NCBI GenBank assembly: GCA_014946745.1
Contig: JADCRD010000001.1
Coordinates: forward strand, 1,360,427-1,424,426
Direction of reading: 5' to 3'
Source of the DNA: Lysobacterales bacterium
GTDB lineage: Bacteria > Pseudomonadota > Gammaproteobacteria > Xanthomonadales > Xanthomonadaceae
Length of the DNA: 64,000 bases
Position 1 is the stretch's first letter, and each line of letters opens with the position of its first letter. Made by a program: the position numbers and the translations under genes. Below are positions 11,543 to 27,188 of this stretch, one piece after another. The notes beneath the pieces are model-generated. The model did not search any database, was not told the DNA's origin, and saw only the letters and a list, made by a program, of their open reading frames with translations.

Positions 11543-12523
11543 ATGCGCTTTCTGTTGATTGTGCTGTTCGCTCTGTGCGCGCCGCTGGCGCAGGCGCAGA
11601 GCTTCAAAATCGCCACGCTGGCCCCCGAAGGCTCCAGCTGGCTGCGCGAGATGCGCGCCGCCGCCGAAGAAGTCAAGCAGCGCACCGAGGGGCGCGTCGA
11701 GTTCCGCTACTACCCCGGCGGGGTCATGGGCGATGACGCCACGGTGATGCGCAAGATCCGCCTGGGGCAGCTGCAGGGCGGCGCCCTCACCGGCAGCGAG
11801 TTGTCCCTCATCTACCCGGACGCCGTGGTCTATGGCCTGCCTTTCCTGTTCGAGAACCACGGGCAGGTCGCCGCCGTGCGTCGTGAGGTCGACCCGCTGC
11901 TGAAAGACGGCGTCCGCGAAAAGGGCTTCGAGGTGCTGAGCATCTCGGGCGTCGGCTTCGCCTACATGATGAGCAGCAAGCCGCTGCAGAGCATCGAGCA
12001 CCTGCGCGCGGGCAAGGTCTGGATTCCGAGCAATGACCTCATCAGCGAGCGCACCTTCAGCGCTGGCGGCGTCAGCCCGATCCCTCTGCCGCTGGCGGAC
12101 GTGTTCACGAGCCTGCAGACCGGCATGATCGACATCGTCGGCAACACCCCGGCGGGCGCCATCGCCCTGCAGTGGCACACGCGGGTGAAGCATGTGTTCG
12201 ATGCGCCCTTGGCCTATGTGGTCGGTTTTGTGGTGCTCGACAATCGCGCCTTCGCTCGCATCGACGAGGCGGATCGCGCGATTGTGCTCGACGCCTTCGG
12301 CAAGGCCTCGGAGCGGATCGACGCCGAGAACCAGCGCGCGGATGAGAGCGCGATCGCGGCCCTGCGCGGCGAAGGCATCGAGTTCTTCACCCCGGACGCC
12401 ACCGAACTGGCGCGCTGGCGCGAAGTGGGCCTGTCGGTGCGGACCGGCATGGTGGAGCGCGATGAACTGAGTGCTTCGATGGTGGACGCCGTGGTCCGAC
12501 GCGCCGGTGCGTCCTCGCCGTGA
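11543..12523 (+). CDS. dctP: TRAP transporter solute-binding protein, DctP family
   Basis: Signal peptide MRFLLIVLFALCAPLAQA. SFKIATLAPEGSSWLREM resembles the DctP-family N-terminal motif. Confidence 0.85.
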   Translation: MRFLLIVLFALCAPLAQAQSFKIATLAPEGSSWLREMRAAAEEVKQRTEGRVEFRYYPGGVMGDDATVMRKIRLGQLQGGALTGSELSLIYPDAVVYGLPFLFENHGQVAAVRREVDPLLKDGVREKGFEVLSISGVGFAYMMSSKPLQSIEHLRAGKVWIPSNDLISERTFSAGGVSPIPLPLADVFTSLQTGMIDIVGNTPAGAIALQWHTRVKHVFDAPLAYVVGFVVLDNRAFARIDEADRAIVLDAFGKASERIDAENQRADESAIAALRGEGIEFFTPDATELARWREVGLSVRTGMVERDELSASMVDAVVRRAGASSP

Positions 12524-12533
12524 GCCGCAGCGC

Positions 12534-13028
12534 GTGAGTCGACTGCTGCGCGCGCTGCACCGTCTTGAAGACGGCGTGCTCGCCGGGCTGCTGCTTCTGC
12601 TGCTCGGGCTCGCGGTCGCTCAGATCGGGCTGCGTTGGTTTGCCGATACCGGTTGGACCTCGGGCGAGACCGCGCAGCGCACGCTCGTCCTGTGGATCGC
12701 CCTGCTGGGCGCTCTCGGAGCCGCGCGCGAGCGCCGGCACCTCGCGCTCGACCTGCTGCCGCGCCTGCTGCCGCCATTCGGCCAGCGCGTGCTGTGGGTG
12801 CTGGCGCAGCTGGTAGGCGCCGCGCTCTGTGGGCTGATGGCCTGGTACGGCTGGAGCCTGATCGAGCTCGAACGCGAGGCGCCGACGCCCCTGTTCGCTG
12901 GCCTGCCGAGCTGGGCCGGCATGCTGATCATTCCCTTCGGTTTCGCGGTGCTTGCGCTGCGGTTCGTTCTCGCCAGCGCGCTCGGTCCGCCGAGCGAGGC
13001 GCCGATTGGCGAGGGAAGCTCGACGTGA
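12534..13028 (+). CDS. dctQ: TRAP transporter small permease, DctQ family
   Basis: 4-TM small membrane protein between dctP and dctM. GTG start at 12534 chosen just after the dctP stop. Confidence 0.7.
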   Translation: MSRLLRALHRLEDGVLAGLLLLLLGLAVAQIGLRWFADTGWTSGETAQRTLVLWIALLGALGAARERRHLALDLLPRLLPPFGQRVLWVLAQLVGAALCGLMAWYGWSLIELEREAPTPLFAGLPSWAGMLIIPFGFAVLALRFVLASALGPPSEAPIGEGSST

Positions 13029-14299
13029 GTGGGCTCTGGCTGCTGCTGATCCTTGCGGCCTTGCTGGGCGCGCCGCTGTTCGTGCTGATTCTCGGCGCTG
13101 CGTTCATCGGATTCCATCAGGCCGGCTACGACCTCACGGTCGTAGCGGTCGAGTTCCATCGCCTGGCCGGCATGCCGGGGCTCACCGCGATTCCGCTGTT
13201 CACCGTCGCCGGCTACCTGCTGGCGGAGAGCCGCGCACCGCAGCGCCTGTTGAAGCTGTCCGATGCGCTGCTCGGCTGGCTGCCCGGCGGCATCGCCATC
13301 GTCGGGCTGGTGGCGTGTGCGCTGTTCACCGCGTTCACCGGCGCCTCGGGCGTGACCATCGTGGCGATGGGTGCCCTGCTGTATCCGGCGCTCAAGGCGG
13401 CCGGCTTCGACGAGCGATTCAATCTCGGCCTGGTCACCAGTGCCGGCAGCCTCGGACTGCTGTTTGCGCCTTCACTGCCGCTCATCCTCTACGGCTTCGT
13501 CGCCGGCCAGCTCGGCACGACGCCGTCGGTGACCATCGAAGATCTGTTCATCGCCGGCATCCTGCCCGGGCTGCTGATGATTGCCCTGTTGGGCGCCTAT
13601 GCCGCCTTTCATGGCCGCGCGCTGCAGGCGCGCTCGCAGCCCTTCGCCTGGTCGCGCGTGCTCGAAGCAACGCGCGAAGCGGCCTGGGAGATTCCGCTGC
13701 CGCTGCTGGTGCTGGGGGCCATCTACTCGGGTGCACTGGCCGCCTCCGAGGCGGCTGCAATCACCGCGCTCTACGTGCTCGTCGTGACCGTGCTGGTGAG
13801 ACGTGAGATCGCGTTCCATCGGCTGCCGGGCCTGCTGGCCGAGTCGATGCGCATGGTCGGCGCCATCCTCATCATTCTGGGCGCCGCGCTGGCGCTGTCG
13901 AACTGGCTGGTCGATGCCGAGGTGCCGACACGGCTGTTCGAGTGGATCCAGGGCGCCATCAGCAGCCCGCTCACCTTCCTGCTGGCCCTGAATCTGTTCC
14001 TGCTGGCGGTCGGCATGCTGCTCGACGTGTTCGCCGCGATCGTGATCCTGGTGCCCCTGCTGGTGCCGATCGCGATCGGCTATGGCATCCACCCGGTGCA
14101 TCTGGGCGTGCTGATGCTGGCCAACCTGCAGCTCGGTTACTTCACCCCGCCGGTGGGCATGAACCTGTTCATCGCCAGCTACCGGTTCAAGGTGCCGATC
14201 GGCCGCCTGGTGCGCGCCTGCGTGCCCTTCTTCCTGATCCTGCTGGTGGCACTGGTGCTCATCACCTACGTGCCGTGGCTGTCGCTGGCTTTGCTTTGA
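13025..14299 (+). CDS. dctM: TRAP transporter large permease, DctM family
   Basis: ~424-aa polytopic membrane protein (VSGLWLLLILAALLGAPLFVLILGAAFIGF...). GTGA overlap with the dctQ stop. The ORF-track start 12635 is rejected as an upstream extension. Confidence 0.85.
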   Translation: MSGLWLLLILAALLGAPLFVLILGAAFIGFHQAGYDLTVVAVEFHRLAGMPGLTAIPLFTVAGYLLAESRAPQRLLKLSDALLGWLPGGIAIVGLVACALFTAFTGASGVTIVAMGALLYPALKAAGFDERFNLGLVTSAGSLGLLFAPSLPLILYGFVAGQLGTTPSVTIEDLFIAGILPGLLMIALLGAYAAFHGRALQARSQPFAWSRVLEATREAAWEIPLPLLVLGAIYSGALAASEAAAITALYVLVVTVLVRREIAFHRLPGLLAESMRMVGAILIILGAALALSNWLVDAEVPTRLFEWIQGAISSPLTFLLALNLFLLAVGMLLDVFAAIVILVPLLVPIAIGYGIHPVHLGVLMLANLQLGYFTPPVGMNLFIASYRFKVPIGRLVRACVPFFLILLVALVLITYVPWLSLALL

Positions 14300-14303
14300 G
14301 AGC

Positions 14304-14333
14304 CGGGATTGGGAATTCGGGATTCGGGATTCG
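14304..14333. repeat. heptamer microsatellite, ~4 units (GGGATTG GGAATTC GGGATTC GGGATTC)
   Basis: Direct tandem repeat in the dctM-guaB intergenic region. Confidence 0.9.
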
Positions 14334-14404
14334 CAGCCAGCGGAATCGAGCGTGAGGGGGGGGCGCATGCTCCGCCGGCCTCGGAGGACGCAAACCCGCG
14401 CTAA

Positions 14405-15916
<1,512 letters not shown>

Positions 15917-15926
15917 CGCTTGCGCG

Positions 15927-15957
15927 GCGGGATTGGGGATTGGGGATTGGGGATTGC
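15927..15957. repeat. heptamer microsatellite (GGGATTG)x4, G-rich on the + strand
   Basis: GCGGGATTGGGGATTGGGGATTGGGGATTGCG lies 11 nt after the guaB stop. Four G3-4 tracts with 3-4 nt loops give a G-quadruplex-type motif. Confidence 0.9.
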
Positions 15958-16065
15958 GTCTGCTGCGGTCGCTCAGACGATCGGTACCGCGTCACCGCTC
16001 TGGTTTGCACTCTCGCTACGCCCCTTGGGCTGTTCTTGGGCCTGATGTTTCGTGGGCCCGCTCTT

Positions 16066-16093
16066 CAATCCCCAATCCCGAATCCCCAATCCC
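16066..16093. repeat. heptamer microsatellite (CAATCCC)x4, inverted relative to the 15927 array
   Basis: CAATCCCCAATCCCGAATCCCCAATCCC ends directly at the guaA ATG (16094). Confidence 0.9.
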
Positions 16094-17680
16094 ATGCTCC
16101 AAGACATCCACAGCGACAAGATCCTGATCCTCGACTTCGGCGCGCAGTACACGCAGCTGATCGCCCGTCGCATCCGCGAGATCGGGGTGTACTGCGAGAT
16201 CTGGGCCTGGGATCACGATCCCGCCGAGATCGCCGCCTGGGGCGCGAAGGGCATCATCCTCTCGGGTGGGCCGGAGTCCACTGTCGAAGCGGGCTCACCG
16301 CGCGCGCCGCAGGAAGTGTTCGATGCTGGCGTGCCAATCCTCGGCATCTGCTACGGCATGCAGACCATGGCCGTGCAGTTGGGCGGCCGAGTGGAGTCGG
16401 GGCATGAGCGCGAGTTCGGCTATGCCGAGGTCGAAGTCAGCGCGCCCTGCGGCCTGCTGGATGGCCTGAAGGACCACGCCGGCTCGCCGCCGCGGCTTGA
16501 CGTGTGGATGAGCCACGGCGACCGCGTGACCGCGGTGCCGCCGGACTTCCACATCACCGCGCGCACCGAGAGCGTTGCCATCGTCGCCATGGCCGACGAG
16601 CAGCGCCGGTGGTATGGCGTGCAGTTCCACCCGGAGGTGACCCACACCAAGTCCGGCACCGACATGCTGCGGCGCTTTGTCGTCGACCTCTGCGGCTGCG
16701 CAACCCTGTGGACCGCCGCCAACATCATCGAGGACCAGATCGAGCGCGTGCGCGCCCAGGTGGGCGAGGGCGATGTTCTGCTGGGCCTGTCGGGCGGCGT
16801 CGATTCCAGCGTGGTCGCGGCCCTGCTGCACCGCGCTCTGGGCGAGCGCTTGACCTGCGTGTTCGTCGACACCGGCCTGCTGCGTTGGCAGGAAGGCGAT
16901 CAGGTCATGCAGATGTTCGCCGCCAACGCCGAGGCTGGCGGCATGGGCGTCAAGGTGATCCGCGTCAATGCGGCCGAGCGCTACTACGCCGCACTGTCGG
17001 GCGTCGAAGACCCCGAAGCCAAGCGCAAGATCATTGGTCGGCTGTTCGTCGAAATCTTCGACGAAGAGGCCGCCAAGCTCAGCAATATCCAGTGGCTGGC
17101 GCAGGGCACGATCTACCCCGACGTGATCGAATCGGCCGGCAGCAAGACCGGCAAGGCCCACGTCATCAAGAGCCACCATAACGTCGGTGGCCTTCCCGAT
17201 CACATGAAGCTCGGCCTGGTCGAGCCGCTGCGCGAGCTGTTCAAGGACGAAGTGCGTCGCCTCGGCGTGGCACTCGGCCTGCCGCGCCACATGGTCTACC
17301 GCCATCCCTTCCCGGGCCCGGGCCTGGGCGTGCGCATCCTCGGCGAGGTCAAGCCCGAATACGCCGAGCTGCTGGCCAAGGCCGACCACATCTTCATCGA
17401 AGAGCTGCGCCGCGCCGACCTTTACGACCGCGTCAGCCAGGCCTTTGCCGTGTTCCTGCCGGTGAAGTCGGTCGGCGTGGTCGGCGACGCCCGCGCCTAC
17501 GAATGGGTGATCGCGCTGCGCGCGGTCGAAACCATCGACTTCATGACCGCGCACTGGGCGCACCTGCCCTACGACTTCCTCGACCGCGTCGCGCGGCGCA
17601 TCGTTAACGAGCTGCGCGGCGTGAGCCGCGTGGTCTACGACATCAGCGGCAAGCCGCCGGCGACGATTGAGTGGGAGTGA
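16094..17680 (+). CDS. guaA: GMP synthase (glutamine-hydrolysing)
   Basis: [40 protein letters not shown] aligns with the E. coli GuaA N-terminus. C-terminal KPPATIEWE. The alternative GTG at 16052 would translate the repeat array and is rejected. Confidence 0.95.
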
Positions 17681-17853
17681 GTTCAGAAAGAGTGGATGCC
17701 CGCATGAGGCAACTGAAACTCTTTGCGCACCCTGGCCAAGTTCCTTGGTCTAGCCCCTCTCGCATCCTCGCGTCGTGTCTTGATGGGCATACTCAATTCG
17801 TGGCGCGTTTAGTCTGCCCGAACTCCCGTTCGACAAGGATCTGAAATGTCTTT

Positions 17854-18923
17854 CCTGATTAGCGCCGAACCTCAGTCTTCGCTCGCAGGATCTGAGACGC
17901 AACGACCCGAGGCTGAGCTACCAACCCACGTGGAGCACGGCCATGGCGATGAACATGATCCAGTTTCAGTCGGGGCTGTCGCTGCCTGAGTTCCTGGACC
18001 TCTACGGCACGGAGGCGAAGTGTCGACGGGCACTGTACCGCTGGCGTTGGCCCGCGGGATTTCGTTGCCCTGCCTGCGGAGGTCGCCACCGTTCGAGCTT
18101 TCGTCGCGGCGGCCAGAACCTTTACCAGTGCCGCGCCTGCCAGCACCAGGCCACGCTGATCAGCGGCACCCTGCTGGCCTCCACCAAGTTGCCCTTGACC
18201 ACCTGGCTGCTGGCGATCTACCTGCTCACCTCCACCAAGACCAACCTCGCAGCGCTGGAGCTCAAGCGTCATCTCGGCGTGTGCTACCGCACGGCCTGGC
18301 GCTTGAAGCACAAGATCATGCAGGCCATGGCCGAGCAGGAAAAATCGAGGCAGCTCAGTGGATTCGTGCAGATCGATGACGCTTACCTCGGCGGTGAGCG
18401 CAACGGCGGCAAGCCGGGACGAGGCTCCGAGAACAAGCAGCAGTTCTTGATCGCGGTGAGCACCGATGCAGCCCTTCAACACCCGACCTTCGCTGTCATC
18501 GAACCCGTGCCGGCCTTCGACAATGCCTCGCTGGCCGACTGGGTGCAGCGGCGCTTGGCGCCCGAGGCGGAGGCGTTTACCGATGGGCTGGGGTGCTTCC
18601 GGCGCATCGAGGTTGCGGGCCACGCGCACACCGTGCTGCAGACCGGCGGCGGCCGCGCGGCCACCGAAGTCGATGGCGCCCGCTGGGTCAACGTGCTGCT
18701 CTCGAACCTCAAGCGGGCGCTCGAGGGCGTCTATCACGCCATCCGTCAGTCGAAGTACGCTGGCCGCTACCTGGCCGAGGCCGCGTACCGCTTCAACCGC
18801 CGCTTCAAGCTGCGCAGGATGGCGGGCCAGCTCGGGGCCGACTTGATGAGCTGCAAGCCTTGTCCAGAGCGGCTTCTGCGTGCGGCGAGCAATTTCGCTC
18901 ACTGAGGTTCGGCGCTAATCAGG
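17854..18923 (+). mobile_element. IS1595-family insertion sequence, intact (1070 bp)
   Basis: Perfect 23-bp terminal inverted repeats CCTGATTAGCGCCGAACCTCAGT (17854-17876) and its reverse complement (18901-18923). A single transposase ORF lies between them. No flanking target-site duplication (ATGTCTTT vs TGGAGCCA). Confidence 0.85.
17943..18905 (+). CDS. IS1595-family transposase (N-terminal zinc ribbon + DDE domain)
   Basis: 320 aa. FRCPACGGRHRS...YQCRACQHQATLISGTLLASTKLPLTTWLLAIYL zinc-ribbon/HTH region and a DDE core (QIDDAYLGGE...) typical of IS1595/ISPna2-group transposases. Confidence 0.85.
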   Translation: MAMNMIQFQSGLSLPEFLDLYGTEAKCRRALYRWRWPAGFRCPACGGRHRSSFRRGGQNLYQCRACQHQATLISGTLLASTKLPLTTWLLAIYLLTSTKTNLAALELKRHLGVCYRTAWRLKHKIMQAMAEQEKSRQLSGFVQIDDAYLGGERNGGKPGRGSENKQQFLIAVSTDAALQHPTFAVIEPVPAFDNASLADWVQRRLAPEAEAFTDGLGCFRRIEVAGHAHTVLQTGGGRAATEVDGARWVNVLLSNLKRALEGVYHAIRQSKYAGRYLAEAAYRFNRRFKLRRMAGQLGADLMSCKPCPERLLRAASNFAH

Positions 18924-19006
18924 TGGAGCCATCCGAAGTCGCCAAGCGGGCGGAAGTGGCTTTCGTTGGAACCGTGCTCAAGGTGGAAAGCGATCCTTAC
19001 CGGCCA

Positions 19007-19288
19007 ATGGACCTGTGTTGGGATGCCTTGCATGGCGATGACTGTGGTGGCAGGCGAGTCACCTTCGAACTAGGCGAAGCGCTCAGGGGGAACTTGGAGA
19101 CGCAGGTCGAAGTGGTTTCGGAAGATGCTTGCTACTGCCTGGGGAGCTACTGGGAGGTCGGCAGCGACTACTTGGTCATCGCCGCAGCCGATGAAGGCAA
19201 CGCGAATAGACTCATCGCTGAGGATGTCTGTGCGGGCACGGGCAAGCTCTACGAGCGTTCGGGCTATCTCAGAGAGCTGCGGAAGTAA
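19007..19288 (+). pseudogene. probable 3' fragment of a gene truncated by the IS insertion (hypothetical, Cys-rich C-terminus)
   Basis: The reading frame continues out of the IS right end without its own upstream region. ~57% GC. Ends ...CAGTGKLYERSGYLRELRK*. No recognisable family. Confidence 0.3.
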
Positions 19289-19638
19289 CCTCTGCATCCA
19301 CACGTGCCAGCTCAGCATACAAGTTGCGCCGGTGGGCGGATTCGAAGGCGAGGCAGCGCTGGAACTGGGGCGTGATCCTCGATCAACGGGATCGGCGCTT
19401 TCGAGACCGTCGCAAGATCTGCTCCCCTCCGGCGCGACATGCTGAGTCACGTTGCCGCGAATACGGTGCCGGCACCGTGCTATTCGCCGGATCACCTTGA
19501 CGAAATGAAGTTCCGGGCGCTGATCATTGTCGGCTCCAAGCCGATTGCGAATCTGCTTGACGAAGGCTGGCGGGGGATAGGCAGCGTTTCAGCGCCTCTT
19601 GACCGCCGTCATGGGCTCGCGCTGCACCCAAGCGCTGA

Positions 19639-19851
19639 CCTGATAAGTGTCGAACCTCAGTTGATGCTCGGAGCGCTTGGGCACCGAGAATCCTGCACCG
19701 CTTGGTCCTCATGACACCGAGCGGGCCGACGGACGCGCGTCCACTTCGAGCTTCGGAGTCCGACCGTGCGAATCTTGCTTGAAGGCTTGACGCTGCAGCG
19801 GCTTTCGGCATCCGGGGTGGCGTTAGGCACTGAGGTTCGACACTAATCAGG
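19639..19851. mobile_element. 213-bp MITE derived from the IS1595-family element, with 8-bp target-site duplication
   Basis: Terminal IRs CCTGATAAGTGTCGAACCTCAGT (19639-19661) and ACTGAGGTTCGACACTAATCAGG (19829-19851) match the full IS IRs. The interior retains a degenerate copy of the transposase 3' end. Flanked by a perfect direct repeat AGCGCTGA (19631-19638 and 19852-19859), the 8-bp TSD expected for IS1595. Confidence 0.7.
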
Positions 19852-20349
19852 AGCGCTGAAGGCCTTCGGCCCTTGGGGTGGCTGACGCGTAGTGCTGTTG
19901 GTGGTCCTCCGCCATTGCTCTATGGAAGGTCTGAACAACTCCGTCCGGGAGTCGTTCAGACGTCGCGAGTCCGGCGCGGGTCCGGACTCGTTCGGCCGCT
20001 GCGCGGCGACGCCTTCGCTGCGCTCGGTCACCCCAGATCAAGCGCTGACGAGCTCGATCCTCGTGACCGCCATTCGTGGCGCGCCATAGGGAAGCTCCGG
20101 TGAATCAGAGCTTCCCTATGGCGCGCAGTTCGAAACGGGCACTGCCATTCGTGTCGGGCATCGCCCTCTGGCTGCCAGAGCCGGCAGCTGGGCCGTCCGC
20201 CCGGTGGTGGCCCTTGCGTTCGACCTGCTACCTCAGCAGGCCGCCTGCCAGCCTTCGATTGCTGGCGGGCAGTTGGCCTTGCGAGGTTGTCGAGGTCGTG
20301 AGCGTCGAAATGGGTGAGGCGCAGGCAGTGTCTTCAGCGATTCGGCTGA

Positions 20350-20700
20350 TCAGGTCGGCGGGATGCCGTCGTTCTCGATCTGGGGATCCATGCTGCTGAA
20401 CTGATTGCCTTGGGAGTCGCTGAACACGATTTCGAAGCGGAAGACCGACTGCCCGGCATCGGCGTTGACGTCGGTCAGGATCAGGGACTGCTGGTCGGCT
20501 GGGATGGCCCAGGTCAGCTGGTCAGCGGTATCAAAGGGATTGCGCTGAACGTTGATGCCAACGAAGCGAAAGCCACGGCTGATCATCGTGTAGGTAATGG
20601 TTTCAGTCTTGCCATGCTTGACTGGCAACGGCTCTGAACTGAATGCGATGCCATAGTCGGGAAACGCACCGTTGATCGACACGCTGATGGATTGGCTCAT
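20350..20700 (-). CDS. hypothetical 116-aa protein (predicted beta-rich, no signal peptide), low-GC, start overlaps the kinase stop
   Basis: MSQSISVSINGAFPDYGIAFSS... ATG overlaps the TGA of the upstream Ser/Thr kinase gene (ATGA). ~57% GC versus ~70% for the kinase. Confidence 0.45.
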   Translation of the reverse strand: MSQSISVSINGAFPDYGIAFSSEPLPVKHGKTETITYTMISRGFRFVGINVQRNPFDTADQLTWAIPADQQSLILTDVNADAGQSVFRFEIVFSDSQGNQFSSMDPQIENDGIPPT

Positions 20701-23231
20701 CGGAGTTCCTTTTGCTCGGGTGGAAGGGTTTCGGTGGGCTTCCGAAGGTCTGCGATCATTCGATCGAGCTCGGGCAGATCACGGATGGATGAGTTCGACC
20801 TCTGGATCAGCGAGCGCTTTGCGACGAGATATCTGAGAGACAGGCTCGATGAGTCCCGAAGGTTGGCAAGTACCCTTAGTGCTTCCGGCCAGGGACCGGC
20901 TTCACCGTCGGGGATGTGCGCGGCCAACTCTACATACAGCAGGTCAAGGTCTACGCTGGAGTTTCGCGCCTCGCGCAGAAGCTGGATCCTTTCCATCACC
21001 TCTGCGGCGCAGCCAGTGCCTGGCATGTCGAGATGGTGCAGCGCCAGACAACGAGCGCCGCTGACACGCACACGCTCGCCTTCTGGAAGCGGGCTGGTCG
21101 AAACGACCCGATGCGCTTGCTCTGCAGTCGCGAGGTGCTGGCGACTCGCCGCAGTGTTCCCCGAAGTCTTTATCGCGGCTCGGTAGCCGATCAATGCCAG
21201 CAGAACCTGGCGTCGTGGCTGTGTCGGATCGTTGGCTGCATCCTCCCGTGCCAGCGCGGCGGCGCGCAGCAGGCTGTCGATACTGGCGCCCTCTTGTCCG
21301 AGCAAATCGCTGTGGACATCAAGCATGTAGCGCAGATTGATCTCGAATCGTCTTGCTCGCGGGCTGGCGCCTGCCGCTCGTTCGTGGGCCAACAGCCTCT
21401 CCAGCGCCGTTTTTCTGCTCTCCAGCGCGGCGCGAGGCTGTCCCAAGCTTTCCTGGGCGTTGGCGACCCAAGAAAGCGAATCCACGAGGTCGAGGACGCG
21501 AGGATCCGAATCGGAATTCAACATCGCCTCGCGAACCTGCGCCGCTTGTTCAAAGTGCGCCAGCGCGTCGGATGGGCGCTCCTGGGCTAGCATCAGGGAA
21601 CCAAGATTGTTCAGCGCATAGGCGATTTCGTGTTGCCCGGATTGATGGTCACCAGTGATCTCGTCGAATGCACGCGCTTCGGCTAGGTAGCGTGCCATGT
21701 GAGTTTCGGCCGCCGGGTAGTCGCGAACCCTGTAGGCGATATGACCGCGCCAGAACGCCACCTGGCCCGCCTCGAAATGAAGCTGTTCCTTCTGCCGTCC
21801 GGGCGAAGCAAGCGCCGCTTCCAACAGCCGTGCCGCCTGCTCAAGCACCGGCCCAGCCTGCTCAAACTGCTGGCGCGTCACCTGCACTTCCCCAAGCGTG
21901 CGTAGGGCCCTAGCGCGTGCCAACGCGCTCGCCGCATCACCGCGCATGTCCGCTTCACCGAGGTACTTGAGCGCTTCGGCGCCGATGCTGTCCAGCAGAT
22001 CCAGACGTCCCAGCGGGCGCAGCTTGTCGGCGAGGTCGCCCAGCATGTACTGGATGAGCTGTTCGGCCTCGCCGCGACGCTGTTCCGCGAGGGCTTGTGC
22101 AGCTTCCGCCTGGGCTCGGCCGGCGCGCGCTTCGGTCAGGCCGTAGAGGGCCAGGCCAGTGCCGCCGATCAGTGCGATGCCAATGAGCGAGGCGGCGGCG
22201 GCGGCCAGCGCATTGCGTCGAAGGAAGCAGCGCAGCGCATATCCGCGCCCGCCCTGAACCGCCATCACGGGCTCGCGTTGCATCCAGCGCTGCAGGTCTT
22301 CGGCCATTGAGGCGGCCGAGGCGTAGCGCTGGTCGCGGTCTTCCGCCATGGCACGTAGCGCGATGGCGCGCAGTTCGAAGGGCACGCGCCGCAGCTGCTG
22401 GGCATCGCCCTCGCCCGGTACGCGTGTCTGCAGGCTGCGCGCGAACTCTTCGCGAAGCGCCGTGTTTTGGAGGGCGCAGCCGTCGAAGGGCAGGCCCACC
22501 TGCAGGCGCAGGCACTCGGCCAGCATCACGCCCAGGGCGTAGATGTCGCAGCGGGCATCGATGCCGGCGGGGGCGGGGTCGCGCTGCTCAGGGGCCATGT
22601 AGGCCGGCGTGCCCGCCACCTGATTGGCTTGCATCGGTGTCGGCCCATCGGCGCTGGCGCCCAGAGCGATGCCGAAGTCGATGATGCGCGGCAGCGGGCC
22701 GGCGTCGGCGTCCTGCACCAGCACGTTCTGTGGCTTCAGGTCCCGATGGATCAGGCCGCGCTGATGGGCATGCTGGATGCCGCCGCAGAGCTCGATGAAC
22801 ATCCGCACGAGCGACGGGGTCGGCTGCGGATACAGGCGCAGGAACTCGTCCAGCGGCCGGCCCGGCACGTACTCCATCGCGAAGTAGAGCGCCCCGTCGG
22901 GCAGGCGCCCCGCGTCGTAGATCTGGGCGATTGCGCGGTGCGAGAGCAGGGCGAGGGCCTGACGCTCCACCTCGAAGAAGGCTTCGGCCCGTGCGCTGCG
23001 CCGCTCCGGCAGCATCACCTTCAGCGCGACGTCTCGGATCAGCGGCTGCAGCTGGTGGGCCAGCCAGACCTGGCCCATGCCGCCCTTTCCCAGGCGGCGC
23101 TCCAGCTTGAAGGCCCCGATGCGTTGTCCCTCGTGCCACTCGCGGACCGGCCGCGAGGCCGCAGAGCACTTGGTGTCGAGGCCTTCAGTGCGAGGCAGGA
23201 CCTGGGTCAGCTGCTCGGTGGCGGTCATCAC
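20697..23231 (-). CDS. Ser/Thr protein kinase (Hanks-type) with TM segment and C-terminal TPR repeat array
   Basis: GxGxxG (LGKGGMGQVW), VALK, HRDLKPQNVL, DFGIA, GTPAYMAPE kinase motifs. TM helix (LAAAAASLIGIALIGGTGLALYGL). Long TPR region. Confidence 0.85.
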   Translation of the reverse strand: MMTATEQLTQVLPRTEGLDTKCSAASRPVREWHEGQRIGAFKLERRLGKGGMGQVWLAHQLQPLIRDVALKVMLPERRSARAEAFFEVERQALALLSHRAIAQIYDAGRLPDGALYFAMEYVPGRPLDEFLRLYPQPTPSLVRMFIELCGGIQHAHQRGLIHRDLKPQNVLVQDADAGPLPRIIDFGIALGASADGPTPMQANQVAGTPAYMAPEQRDPAPAGIDARCDIYALGVMLAECLRLQVGLPFDGCALQNTALREEFARSLQTRVPGEGDAQQLRRVPFELRAIALRAMAEDRDQRYASAASMAEDLQRWMQREPVMAVQGGRGYALRCFLRRNALAAAAASLIGIALIGGTGLALYGLTEARAGRAQAEAAQALAEQRRGEAEQLIQYMLGDLADKLRPLGRLDLLDSIGAEALKYLGEADMRGDAASALARARALRTLGEVQVTRQQFEQAGPVLEQAARLLEAALASPGRQKEQLHFEAGQVAFWRGHIAYRVRDYPAAETHMARYLAEARAFDEITGDHQSGQHEIAYALNNLGSLMLAQERPSDALAHFEQAAQVREAMLNSDSDPRVLDLVDSLSWVANAQESLGQPRAALESRKTALERLLAHERAAGASPRARRFEINLRYMLDVHSDLLGQEGASIDSLLRAAALAREDAANDPTQPRRQVLLALIGYRAAIKTSGNTAASRQHLATAEQAHRVVSTSPLPEGERVRVSGARCLALHHLDMPGTGCAAEVMERIQLLREARNSSVDLDLLYVELAAHIPDGEAGPWPEALRVLANLRDSSSLSLRYLVAKRSLIQRSNSSIRDLPELDRMIADLRKPTETLPPEQKELR

Positions 23232-23376
23232 TTCGCCGAACGAATGTTCTGATGGCCTTCACTATACGAGGCATGCAACTTGCCGCGCCAGTGGGGTGAC
23301 ACCGGTTTCGTGCGGGCGCGCCGCCGATCATCGCGCTGTGCGGTGAAGGGAGGGGGCCTCCCCGACACGCGCCAAG

Positions 23377-26066
<2,690 letters not shown>

Positions 26067-26070
<4 letters not shown>

Positions 26071-27188
26071 GCCGCGGCCTCCGTGGGAACCACGGGCAGC
26101 GCGCGCGGGGTGACGCCCTCGACCACCTTGGCGATGGCCGCGATGTGCTCGGGCGTGGTGCCGCAGCAGCCGCCCACGAGGTTGAGCAGGCCGGCCTCGG
26201 CGAATTCGCGCAGGGTGCCGGCCATGTCCTCGGGGGTTTCGTCGTAGCCGCCGAAGGCGTTCGGCAGGCCGGCGTTCGGATGACAGCTGACGTGTGTGCT
26301 TGCCACCTGGGCGAGGATGTCGACGTGCGCGCGCAGGTCCTTGGCGCCCAGGGCGCAGTTCAAGCCGATGGCGTGCGGCCGCGAATGCGCCAGCGAGTAC
26401 CAGAAGGCCTCGGCGGTCTGGCCCGACAGCGTGCGCCCGCTGCGATCGGTGATCGTGCCGGAGATCATGAGCGGCAGGCGCGCGCCGCGCTGCTGGAAGA
26501 CTTCCTCCACCGCGAACACGGCGGCCTTGGCGTTGAGCGTGTCGAATACGGTCTCGACCATGATGATGTCGGCGCCGCCATCGATGAGGCCTTCGGTCGC
26601 TTCCCGGTAGGCCGTCGCCAGCTCTTCGAAGCTGGTGGCGCGAAACCCGGGGTTGTTGACGTCCGGGCTGATGCTGGCCGTGCGGCTGGTGGGGCCGAGG
26701 ATGCCGACGACGAAACGCGGCTTGTTGGGCGTCTTCGCTTCGATGGCGTCACAGCAGGCGCGGGCCAGCCTGGCGCCTTCCAGGTTCAACTCGCGGGCGA
26801 GATGCTCCAGCTTGTAGTCGGCCTGCGACAGCGTCGTGCTGTTGAAGGTATTGGTCTCGATGAGGTCGGCGCCGGCTTCGAGATAGGCCGTGTGGATGTC
26901 GCCGATGATCTGCGGCTGGGTCAGCGTGAGCAGGTCGTTGTTGCCCTTGAGATCGCAGCCGCAGCCTTCGCCGTGCGAGTGGCCTTCGTGTCCGCAGGGC
27001 GGCTGCGACTGCAGCGCATCCAGACCGTTGCGAAAGCGCTCACCGCGGTAGGCGGCCTCGTCGAGCGAATGACGCTGGATCATCGTGCCCATGGCGCCAT
27101 CGATGATCAGGATGCGCTCGGCGAGTGCGGCTTCGAGCTTGGCGACGCGGTAGGGCTTGAGCCAGGGCAGGGCGGTGAAGCTGGGCAT
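26067..27188 (-). CDS. metH: methionine synthase homocysteine-binding (S-methyltransferase) domain protein (split MetH, part 1)
   Basis: [38 protein letters not shown] aligns with the E. coli MetH N-terminus. Zn-binding [11 protein letters not shown]. Start at ATG 27188, not the ORF-track 27266. Confidence 0.85.

What the first reader, a model, noticed from the sequence alone, without database searches (positions are those of the whole stretch)
17681..20700. Low-GC ~3-kb islet downstream of guaA with an intact IS1595-family element, a cognate 213-bp MITE with perfect 8-bp TSD, and gene debris
Between guaA and the kinase gene the GC content drops to ~55-58%. It contains (i) a 1070-bp IS1595-family element with perfect 23-bp IRs but no TSD, (ii) a 3' gene fragment whose frame runs out of the IS right end, and (iii) a 213-bp non-autonomous derivative (19639-19851). 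That derivative has the same IRs (1-2 mismatches), a recognisable decayed copy of the transposase 3' end, and a perfect 8-bp direct repeat AGCGCTGA on both sides, a diagnostic IS1595 target duplication. The MITE therefore transposed, mobilised in trans by a full-length copy, into an already foreign islet. The absence of a TSD around the full IS suggests it arrived by recombination or that an adjacent deletion occurred. This is direct evidence of recent mobile-element activity at this locus.
Basis: seen in the sequence. Interest (0 to 1): 0.55.

Follow-up and report, generated by a model that had tools for sequence, protein, structure and literature searches.

The report
IS1595 insertion sequence plus older MITE
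Downstream of guaA in a Xanthomonadales genome, an ordinary IS1595-type insertion sequence has recently knocked out a small native gene, and an older 213-bp miniature relative sits in a dead kinase-gene fragment; this is routine mobile-DNA biology.

Summary
The core observation holds. Window 17854-18923 is an intact 1070-bp IS1595-group insertion sequence with perfect 23-bp inverted repeats (IRs) and no target-site duplication (TSD). Window 19639-19851 is a 213-bp IR-bounded element flanked by a perfect 8-bp duplication, AGCGCTGA.

Several details are wrong:
- Regional GC is 62.4%, not 55-58%.
- The small element's IRs differ from the IS's at 3 and 2 positions.
- Its interior shows no detectable similarity to the transposase gene.

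A same-species contig without the IS (L003) shows that the IS sits in codon 3 of a 148-aa gene and replaced 74 bp. That explains the missing TSD. The 148-aa gene lies next to guaA in other Aquimonas-like genomes too, so it is native, not foreign.

The MITE is older than the IS insertion, because L003 carries it. It lies in a decayed fragment of a paralogue of the adjacent kinase gene. Removing it in silico restores one contiguous alignment to that kinase gene. A 77%-identical 213-bp copy with its own 8-bp TSD sits at an unrelated locus in another genome. Seven other short elements with these IRs also have 8-bp TSDs.

Verdict: a real but ordinary IS plus MITE, a new member of a known kind, of low interest.

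The parts
17686..20202 (.). Strain-variable cassette between guaA and the DP-EP/kinase operon (type A). Ten related contigs carry a different ~1.6-kb cassette with exactly these boundaries.
   Evidence: Homology to L004 and L082-L090 stops at 17685 and resumes at 20203. L001-L003 share type A.
17846..17853 (+). First 8 nt (ATGTCTTT) of the interrupted 148-aa gene, left of the IS.
   Evidence: Aligns to the start of the intact gene at L003 11859-11852.
17854..18923 (+). Intact IS1595-group insertion sequence, 1070 bp, with no TSD.
   Evidence: Perfect IRs (I1). 95.0% identical over its full length to an IS in an Aquimonas MAG, L040. About 71% nt and 70% aa identity to Xanthomonas IS1595.
17854..17876 (+). 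Left IR of the IS, CCTGATTAGCGCCGAACCTCAGT.
17943..18905 (+). Transposase gene, 320 aa, with an N-terminal zinc ribbon and a DDE(N) domain. The stop codon lies inside the right IR.
   Evidence: PF12760 at 6e-14, PF12762 at 7e-34. NF033547 at 5e-56. Named 'IS1595 family transposase' MBE5314846.1 in the source record.
18901..18923 (-). Right IR of the IS.
18924..19288 (+). 3' 365 nt (121 codons plus stop) of the 148-aa secreted/lipoprotein-like gene. Codons 3-27, the signal peptide, are lost.
   Evidence: 99% identical to L003 11777-11413. 74 bp (L003 11778-11851) are missing. Homologues P0002 (76%) and P0004 (57%) are full length.
18860..19288 (+). Chimeric 142-aa ORF called by gene finders: 21 residues from the IS right end fused to the truncated gene.
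   Evidence: P0001 sequence.
19581..19638 (-). Kinase-paralogue relic, the part left of the MITE (about kinase nt 940-1000).
   Evidence: blastn 86% over 36 nt. Contiguous alignment after in-silico excision.
19631..19638 (+). TSD copy 1, AGCGCTGA.
19639..19851 (+). 213-bp MITE with no ORF conserved between copies. IRs are at 19639-19661 and 19829-19851, 22/23 complementary to each other.
   Evidence: (I3). Homologous 213-bp copy at L076 2212-2424: 77.5% ungapped identity, own TSD AGTACCGA.
19852..19859 (+). TSD copy 2, AGCGCTGA.
19860..19918 (-). Kinase-paralogue relic, the part right of the MITE (about kinase nt 880-939).
   Evidence: blastn 80.6% over 67 nt (window 19852-19918), E 4e-13. tblastn to kinase aa 282-315.
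20118..20168 (-). Further piece of the kinase-paralogue relic (about kinase nt 820-869).
   Evidence: blastn 78.8% over 52 nt. The peptide FELRAI is identical.

Best explanation
Two separate transposition events of IS1595-group elements, at different times, mark the variable spacer between guaA and a convergent kinase/DP-EP operon in a Xanthomonadales (Aquimonas-like) genome.

(1) Older event. A 213-bp non-autonomous element (MITE) carries only the 23-bp terminal IRs of this IS group around unrelated DNA. An IS1595-group transposase supplied in trans inserted it into a decayed fragment of a paralogue of the neighbouring Ser/Thr kinase gene, duplicating the 8-bp target AGCGCTGA. Two strains about 1-3% diverged share it. 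In this strain it has since acquired a point mutation in its left IR.

(2) Recent, strain-specific event. A 1070-bp autonomous IS inserted into codon 3 of a native 148-aa secreted-protein gene just downstream of guaA. Either an IS-mediated adjacent deletion, or recombination between two nearby copies, removed 74 bp of target DNA plus one TSD copy. The IS is left without a TSD and the gene lacks its signal peptide, so it is inactivated.

Shown: both elements' anatomy, the IS-free site, the 74-bp loss, the shared MITE, the paralogue-based empty site, and the 8-bp TSD rule in relatives.

Inferred: which transposase moved the MITE, the deletion mechanism, and single-copy status in this genome.
For: IS identity:
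- Pfam and NCBIfam IS1595 domains.
- 70% aa identity over the full length to the transposase of Xanthomonas IS1595. That IS is 1072 bp and its IRs start with the same CCTGATTAGC.
- 95% nt identity to an Aquimonas MAG copy.

IS-free site:
- Window 17002-17853 matches L003 12703-11852, and window 18924-21500 matches L003 11777-9201.
- L003 holds an intact 148-aa ORF whose N-terminus aligns with orthologues.

MITE:
- IRs and an 8/8 TSD.
- Present in L003 with perfect IRs.
- Excision in silico raises the local alignment score to the kinase gene from 69 to 103. Shuffles give 27 +/- 2.5, maximum 34. The result is one block, window 19918-19581 against kinase nt 880-1000.
- The L076 copy is 213 bp, 77.5% identical with no indels, has TSD AGTACCGA, and lies between GmrSD/HEPN and HipA_2/DUF3037 genes.

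TSD rule in relatives:
- 8 independent short elements of 159-379 bp with these IRs all have perfect 8-bp TSDs.
- Of 14 other full-length copies, 9 have a perfect 8-bp TSD and 1 has 7/8.

The IS1595 family is known to make 8-bp duplications (PMC12561309). An IS1595-family MITE with IR 25 and DR 8 is documented (PMC3852290).
Against: - No true orthologous empty site for the MITE was found. The empty site is inferred from a paralogue about 80% identical, with a 1-nt indel next to the TSD.
- Copy number of either element in the source genome could not be measured.
- Short-read contigs L001 and L002 run straight through both elements. That suggests both are single copy, which is atypical for a MITE 'family' within one genome.
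- No full-length IS with the MITE-type IRs was shown in this genome.
- The IS at this locus lacks the family's TSD, so its insertion by transposition is inferred from the empty site rather than from a duplication.
Confidence: 0.85

Rival explanations
1. One reading: the 213-bp element is a decayed internal-deletion derivative of the adjacent IS. That IS's transposase mobilised it recently into a horizontally acquired low-GC islet.
For: The elements share the IR core and orientation: 20/23 and 21/23 matches, with the left 35 nt 77% identical. They lie 715 bp apart. The segment is variable between strains.
Against: - The interior is not similar to the IS.
- The IR variant GTGTCG is shared by both MITE ends but not by the IS.
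- L003 has the MITE but no IS.
- A copy only 77% identical in another genome shows that the MITE family is old.
- The 148-aa gene is syntenic with guaA across genomes.
- GC is 62.4%, not 55-58%.
Confidence: 0.06
2. The IS lost its TSD not by an IS-mediated adjacent deletion but by homologous recombination between two IS copies inserted 74 bp apart (or elsewhere). That would delete the interval and one copy.
For: Five of 15 full-length copies of this IS group lack TSDs, so rearrangements between copies are common. The outcome is sequence-identical to an adjacent deletion.
Against: It needs two independent insertions within 74 bp. Short-read contigs pass through the IS without breaking, which suggests few or no other copies. 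No intermediate was seen.
Confidence: 0.25
3. The 213-bp element is not mobile DNA. It is a chance or structural palindrome, such as a REP-like element or RNA gene, that happens to resemble the IS ends.
For: It folds well as a single strand (z = -6.4).
Against: - The fold is driven by the 23-bp IR stem.
- There are no compensatory changes and many broken pairs in the L076 copy.
- There is no Rfam match.
- Four IR matches occur in the window against 0 expected.
- A perfect 8-bp TSD is present here and at 7 other independent short elements.
- In-silico excision restores the paralogue alignment.
Confidence: 0.02

Closest known systems
IS1595 (type element of the IS1595 family, Xanthomonas; IS1595 subgroup)
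   Same: Length is 1070 bp against 1072 bp. Both have a single 320-aa transposase with a zinc ribbon and a DDE_Tnp_IS1595 domain, 70% aa identity with no gaps. The termini start CCTGATTAGC in both, the IRs are 23 bp, and relatives make 8-bp TSDs.
   Different: Identity is about 71% nt, and 5 of 23 IR positions differ. This copy has no TSD. The closest copy is an unnamed 95%-identical element in an Aquimonas MAG. I could not query ISfinder, so it is unknown whether the element already has a name.
IS1595-family MITEs, e.g. the 165-bp ISHwa6-related MITE of Haloquadratum walsbyi (Kamoun et al. 2013, PMC3852290, Table 4: IR 25, DR 8, 7 copies)
   Same: A short element without a transposase gene, with about 23-25-bp IRs matching an IS1595-family IS and an 8-bp duplication.
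   Different: The host is bacterial (Xanthomonadales). The interior is unrelated to any IS found. It appears to be single copy in this genome. A family member in another genome is 77% identical and exactly the same length.
IS-mediated adjacent deletion, classically described for IS1 (established knowledge; the IS1595 family is related to IS1 according to Siguier et al. 2009, cited in PMC12561309)
   Same: The IS is retained, the DNA abutting one end is lost, and no TSD remains.
   Different: The mechanism was not observed here. Only the end state is seen, and which side was deleted cannot be told.

Membership tests
IS1595 family (IS1595 subgroup) | DDE-type transposase matching the IS1595/ISXO2 catalytic domain | tested here: met
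   PF12762 at 7e-34, covering the full profile 1-153. NF033547 at 190 bits against a cut-off of 75.
IS1595 family (IS1595 subgroup) | N-terminal zinc-ribbon DNA-binding domain | tested here: met
   PF12760 at 6e-14, residues 22-69, with CPAC at 42-45 and CRAC at 63-66.
IS1595 family (IS1595 subgroup) | Catalytic D, D, N(7)K followed by E-x3-R-x2-R (motif definition from my memory of Siguier et al. 2009 / ISfinder) | tested here: met
   Read from the sequence: IDD 144-146, TD 213-214, N250...K257, E279-R283-R286. All are conserved in the alignment with Xanthomonas IS1595. Which residues are catalytic was not tested.
IS1595 family (IS1595 subgroup) | About 0.9-1.1 kb, one ORF, terminal IRs beginning CCTGATT | tested here: met
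   1070 bp with 23-bp perfect IRs starting CCTGATTAGC. A Xanthomonas IS1595 copy has the same start.
IS1595 family (IS1595 subgroup) | 8-bp target duplication at this copy | tested here: not met
   The flanks are ATGTCTTT and TGGAGCCA, 1/8 matching. This is explained by the loss of 74 bp of target relative to L003.
IS1595 family (IS1595 subgroup) | 8-bp target duplication in elements with the same IRs | tested here: met
   Of 14 other full-length copies, 9 are perfect and 1 is 7/8. All 8 independent short elements are perfect.
MITE (non-autonomous IS derivative) | Short, no transposase gene, terminal IRs of an autonomous IS | tested here: met
   213 bp. No ORF is conserved between copies and substitutions show no codon periodicity. 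The IRs match the neighbouring IS at 20/23 and 21/23. In L003 and L076 they match L021 and the left IR of L037 at 23/23.
MITE (non-autonomous IS derivative) | TSD of the length made by the parent family | tested here: met
   AGCGCTGA twice. The L076 copy has AGTACCGA twice.
MITE (non-autonomous IS derivative) | Several copies within one genome | not testable with these tools
   The source genome (a 3.1-Mb contig) cannot be searched. There is one copy in the 64-kb window. Short-read contigs cross it unbroken. One diverged copy lies in another genome. There are none in plasmids or viral contigs.
MITE (non-autonomous IS derivative) | Interior derived from the parent IS by internal deletion (applies to deletion-type MITEs only) | tested here: not met
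   Local score 13 against shuffles at 11.8 +/- 1.5. There were no interior hits to any of 14 full-length relatives.
Genomic island / foreign islet | Present/absent between close relatives with sharp borders | tested here: met
   17686-20202 is replaced by a different cassette in L004 and L082-L090.
Genomic island / foreign islet | Foreign content and composition, with integrase, tRNA or border repeats | tested here: not met
   - The 148-aa gene is syntenic with guaA in L077 and L078.
- The rest is a relic of a paralogue of the resident kinase gene.
- GC is 63.1% against 67.1%.
- There is no tRNA in 12000-27000.
- The IS transposase is the only recombinase-type gene found among the ORFs of the segment.

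The most novel reading that the evidence does not exclude
IS1595-group transposases in Xanthomonadales/Lysobacterales may routinely mobilise a heterogeneous population of mini-elements of 159-379 bp. These would consist of the two 23-bp IRs around unrelated cargo. The 213-bp family may be kept under constraint: it has exactly the same length and no indel at 22.5% divergence between genomes, plus a 30-nt nearly invariant block CTCGGAGTCCGACNGTGCGAATCTTGCTT. That would hint at a functional cargo, such as a subterminal transposase-binding site or an outward regulatory signal, rather than junk.
Probability: 0.12. Interest if true: 0.35.

Novelty: new member of a known kind. Interest (0 to 1): 0.2.

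Why it matters
The locus is a clean, fully reconstructable example of three things: gene inactivation by an IS with an accompanying 74-bp deletion, a MITE dated relative to strain divergence, and a paralogue serving as a stand-in empty site. It is useful for annotating this MAG. The 142-aa 'hypothetical protein' is an IS/gene chimera, and the MITE and the kinase relic are unannotated. It may also be useful to ISfinder-type catalogues of IS1595-group elements and their MITEs in Xanthomonadales. It does not change what is known about transposition.

Tried and rejected
- MITE interior against IS interior: local and global alignments showed no signal.
- MITE against all 14 full-length relatives and against the other short elements: only the L076 copy is related; the rest sit at the 55-62% global-alignment background.
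- Structured RNA in the MITE or region: no Rfam hit at E<=1. The consensus fold has 0 compensatory pairs.
- A gene spanning the MITE site on the + strand: in-silico excision creates a 168-codon open frame. Its GC3 is 0.65 against 0.77-0.91 in real genes, it has no Pfam hit, and it has no homologue among 5.8 billion proteins. The real coding relic is on the minus strand, a kinase paralogue.
- Remnants of msrB/msrA or of the 178-aa membrane gene that follow the 148-aa gene in relatives: none found.
- A composite transposon made of the IS left end and the MITE right end (I2): no shared TSD, so rejected.
- MITE in plasmids and the IR pattern in viral contigs: nothing found.
- Promoter and terminator consensus scan of 17600-20450: nothing found.
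- Excess divergence inside the MITE between the window and L003 (5 differences in 213 nt): it is within the genome-wide 1.3-2.8%, so it is no sign of conversion by other copies.
- An orthologous empty site for the MITE: not found. Ten more contigs of the locus all carry the other cassette.
Full report
**Observation**

Reading 17000-21500 and running repeat and pattern searches confirm a 1070-bp element at 17854-18923. It is bounded by perfect 23-bp inverted repeats (IRs), CCTGATTAGCGCCGAACCTCAGT. The window holds four IR matches at up to 3 mismatches, where 0 are expected in shuffles.

The element's single 320-aa ORF (17943-18905) carries Zn_ribbon_IS1595 and DDE_Tnp_IS1595 and NCBIfam NF033547. 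It is 70% identical without gaps to the transposase that PGAP names 'IS1595-like element IS1595 family transposase' on a Xanthomonas citri plasmid. That IS is 1072 bp and its IRs begin with the same CCTGATTAGC. The flanks, ATGTCTTT and TGGAGCCA, are not a duplication.

The small element at 19639-19851 is 213 bp. Its IRs differ from the IS IR at 3 (left) and 2 (right) positions and from each other at 1. It is flanked by AGCGCTGA on both sides.

Three details of the finding do not hold:
- GC of 17681-20700 is 62.4%, against 67.1% for the window. Only the 173-bp spacer after guaA (53.8%) and the DP-EP gene (57.0%) come near the stated 55-58%.
- The IR mismatch count is 2-3, not 1-2.
- The MITE interior has no detectable similarity to the transposase 3' end or to any other part of the IS. 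The local score is 13 against 11.8 +/- 1.5 for shuffles.

**Source and relatives**

Exact look-ups place the window in a MAG annotated 'Xanthomonadales bacterium', on a 3.1-Mb contig. The gene order there is guaA MBE5314845, transposase MBE5314846, DP-EP MBE5314848.

The same IR pattern occurs in 61 stretches of GTDB representative genomes. Nearly all are Lysobacterales/Xanthomonadales: Rhodanobacter, Frateuria, Aquimonas and Lysobacter. The closest full-length copy is 95.0% identical and lies in an Aquimonas MAG, L040.

**The IS insertion**

A 50-kb ENA metagenome contig of the same species (L003) is 97.2-98.7% identical over 20 kb and lacks the IS. Window 17002-17853 aligns to L003 12703-11852, and window 18924-21500 aligns to L003 11777-9201. 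The 74 bp in between, L003 11778-11851, are absent from the window.

In L003 these 74 bp belong to an intact 148-aa ORF, MSFRQWVAALLLYGTFALTVLASTC.... Full-length homologues of this ORF exist: P0002 at 76% and P0004 at 57% from Aquimonas sp.. The IS therefore sits after the eighth nucleotide of this gene.

Gene callers fuse those 121 codons to 21 codons from the IS end as a 142-aa chimera, P0001.

The data cannot tell whether this was a one-step IS-mediated adjacent deletion or recombination between two copies. Five of 15 full-length copies of this IS group lack TSDs, so such rearrangements are common.

**Is the islet foreign?**

The 148/149-aa gene lies immediately downstream of guaA in three contexts:
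- L003;
- L077, where the order is guaA-148-178aa-GGDEF;
- the Aquimonas MAG contig L078, where the order is guaB-guaA-149-msrB-msrA.

The gene is therefore native to this position.

The segment 17686-20202 is nevertheless variable. In L004 and in nine further contigs (L082-L090), homology stops at 17685 and resumes at 20203. In between lies a different ~1.6-kb cassette holding a 178-aa membrane protein and a small ORF. There is no tRNA, and the IS transposase is the only recombinase-type gene found among the ORFs of the segment. The picture fits differential retention or replacement of a spacer between convergent operons better than it fits a classical island.

**The MITE**

Five lines of evidence show that it is a transposed non-autonomous element.

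1. It has a perfect 8-bp TSD of the length typical for the family. For comparison, ISApl4 makes 8-bp repeats (PMC12561309), and an IS1595-family MITE with DR 8 is listed in PMC3852290.

2. Among related loci there are eight independent IR-bounded short elements of 159, 171, 189, 199, 213, 213, 313 and 379 bp. Every one has a perfect 8-bp TSD. So do 9 of the 14 other full-length copies, and one more has 7/8.

3. A metagenome contig, L076 (VFQP010000109.1), carries a 213-bp element that is 77.5% identical without a single indel. It has perfect IRs and its own TSD, AGTACCGA. It lies between GmrSD/HEPN and HipA_2/DUF3037 genes, a context unrelated to guaA.

4. The DNA on both sides of the window MITE is a minus-strand relic of a paralogue of the adjacent kinase gene:
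   - window 19852-19918 matches kinase nt 946-880 at 80.6%, E 4e-13;
   - window 19602-19637 matches nt 974-940 at 86%;
   - window 20118-20168 matches nt 869-820 at 79%;
   - tblastn matches kinase residues 282-344 at E 6e-6.

5. The two blocks abutting the MITE overlap on the kinase by 7 nt, about the length of the TSD. Deleting the MITE plus one TSD copy yields a single alignment of window 19918-19581 to kinase nt 880-1000. The score is 103, against 69 with the MITE left in; 200 dinucleotide shuffles give 27.2 +/- 2.5 with a maximum of 34. This is a paralogue-based empty site.

**Relationship between the MITE and the neighbouring IS**

The MITE is present in L003, which lacks the IS, at 97.7% identity and with perfect IRs. 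The MITE insertion is therefore older than the split of these strains, and the IS insertion is younger.

Both MITE IRs carry GTGTCG where the IS has GCGCCG. This variant is found in full-length elements elsewhere: at both ends of L021, whose transposase is frameshifted, and at the left end of L037, whose 320-aa transposase is intact and 74% identical.

The element is therefore a relative of this IS rather than its recognisable derivative. The transposase that moved it is unknown. In the window strain the left IR has since mutated (T to A at 19645).

Short-read contigs from independent samples (L001, L002) run through both the IS and the MITE without breaking. From this I infer that both are probably single copy in this genome. 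That could not be tested directly.

**Function**

Nothing suggests a function beyond mobility:
- There is no Rfam match.
- The strong fold is the IR stem only, and no pair covaries between the copies.
- Substitutions show no codon periodicity and no ORF is conserved.
- The + strand frame opened by in-silico excision has poor codon statistics, no Pfam hit and no homologue.

**Verdict**

This is a real but ordinary pair of elements: an IS1595-group IS that recently inactivated a small native gene with a 74-bp deletion, and an older fossil MITE of the same IR group inside a kinase pseudogene fragment. The source record already annotates the transposase as IS1595 family. The MITE, the chimera and the kinase relic are new annotation details. 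It is a new member of a known kind, and interest is low.

Noticed in passing
window 20000-23231 versus L003-L006 and L082-L090: The kinase (Pkinase + TPR, 20697-23231 minus) and DP-EP (20350-20700 minus) genes overlap by 4 bp. Against L003-L006 this module is 98.8-99.9% identical, and the DP-EP end of it is 97.4-97.8% identical in L082-L090. The adjacent housekeeping gene guaA is only 93-97% identical. Window 20000-21999 has 4 mismatches to L003 in 2 kb, while guaA has about 20 per 500 bp. This may reflect recent exchange or a sweep of the module between strains.
   Followed up: partly
window 19919-20168: About 199 nt (19919-20117) are extra relative to the kinase gene inside the kinase-paralogue relic. 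They hold a perfect 19-bp-stem hairpin (20079-20126, 10-nt loop, no T-run, single copy in the window). A 19-nt direct repeat flanks it (20066-20084 / 20141-20159, 84%) and re-encodes the same 'ARHEW' peptide. This looks like a local duplication or inverted duplication of unknown origin.
   Followed up: partly
window 19984-20013: Short-read (Logan) contigs from three samples end at 19983 (L001, L002) or start at 19995 / 20014 (L005, L006). Something here breaks assemblies, perhaps a repeat, a polymorphism or a coverage drop near the GC-rich hairpin at 19968-19990. It was not resolved.
   Followed up: no
window 18924-19288; L003 11413-11859; L077 195-641; L078 6001-6450: A 148/149-aa protein family lies directly downstream of guaA in each of the three contexts recovered here (L003, L077, L078), all Aquimonas-like genomes. 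It has a signal peptide ending ASTC and six conserved cysteines. It has no Pfam or NCBIfam match and only 7 relatives in 5.8 billion proteins.
   Followed up: partly
L007-L067, especially Rhodanobacter terrae KACC 11761 and Frateuria defendens DHo: More than 20 (R. terrae) and about 10 (F. defendens) draft-assembly contigs end about 100 nt from this IR. This indicates large expansions of the same IS group in those genomes.
   Followed up: no
L012 4474-5346; L039 1969-1991: L012 holds an 873-bp internally deleted copy without a TSD. L039 has an extra IR-like site 85 bp upstream of its full-length IS. These are further decay and rearrangement products of the IS group.
   Followed up: no
protein cluster of window 17943-18905: The 90%-identity cluster holding this 320-aa transposase has 295 members. 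Most are ~857-aa copper P-type ATPases, including the representative. I did not follow this up; a chimeric member bridging the two groups is one possible cause. Cluster-level names for this protein are unreliable.
   Followed up: no
L004 3240-3602 (minus strand): The 120-aa ORF in the alternative (type B) cassette reads like the N-terminal part of an M20-type amidohydrolase followed by out-of-frame sequence, so the other cassette may hold gene debris too. This is my reading of the sequence only and was not tested.
   Followed up: no
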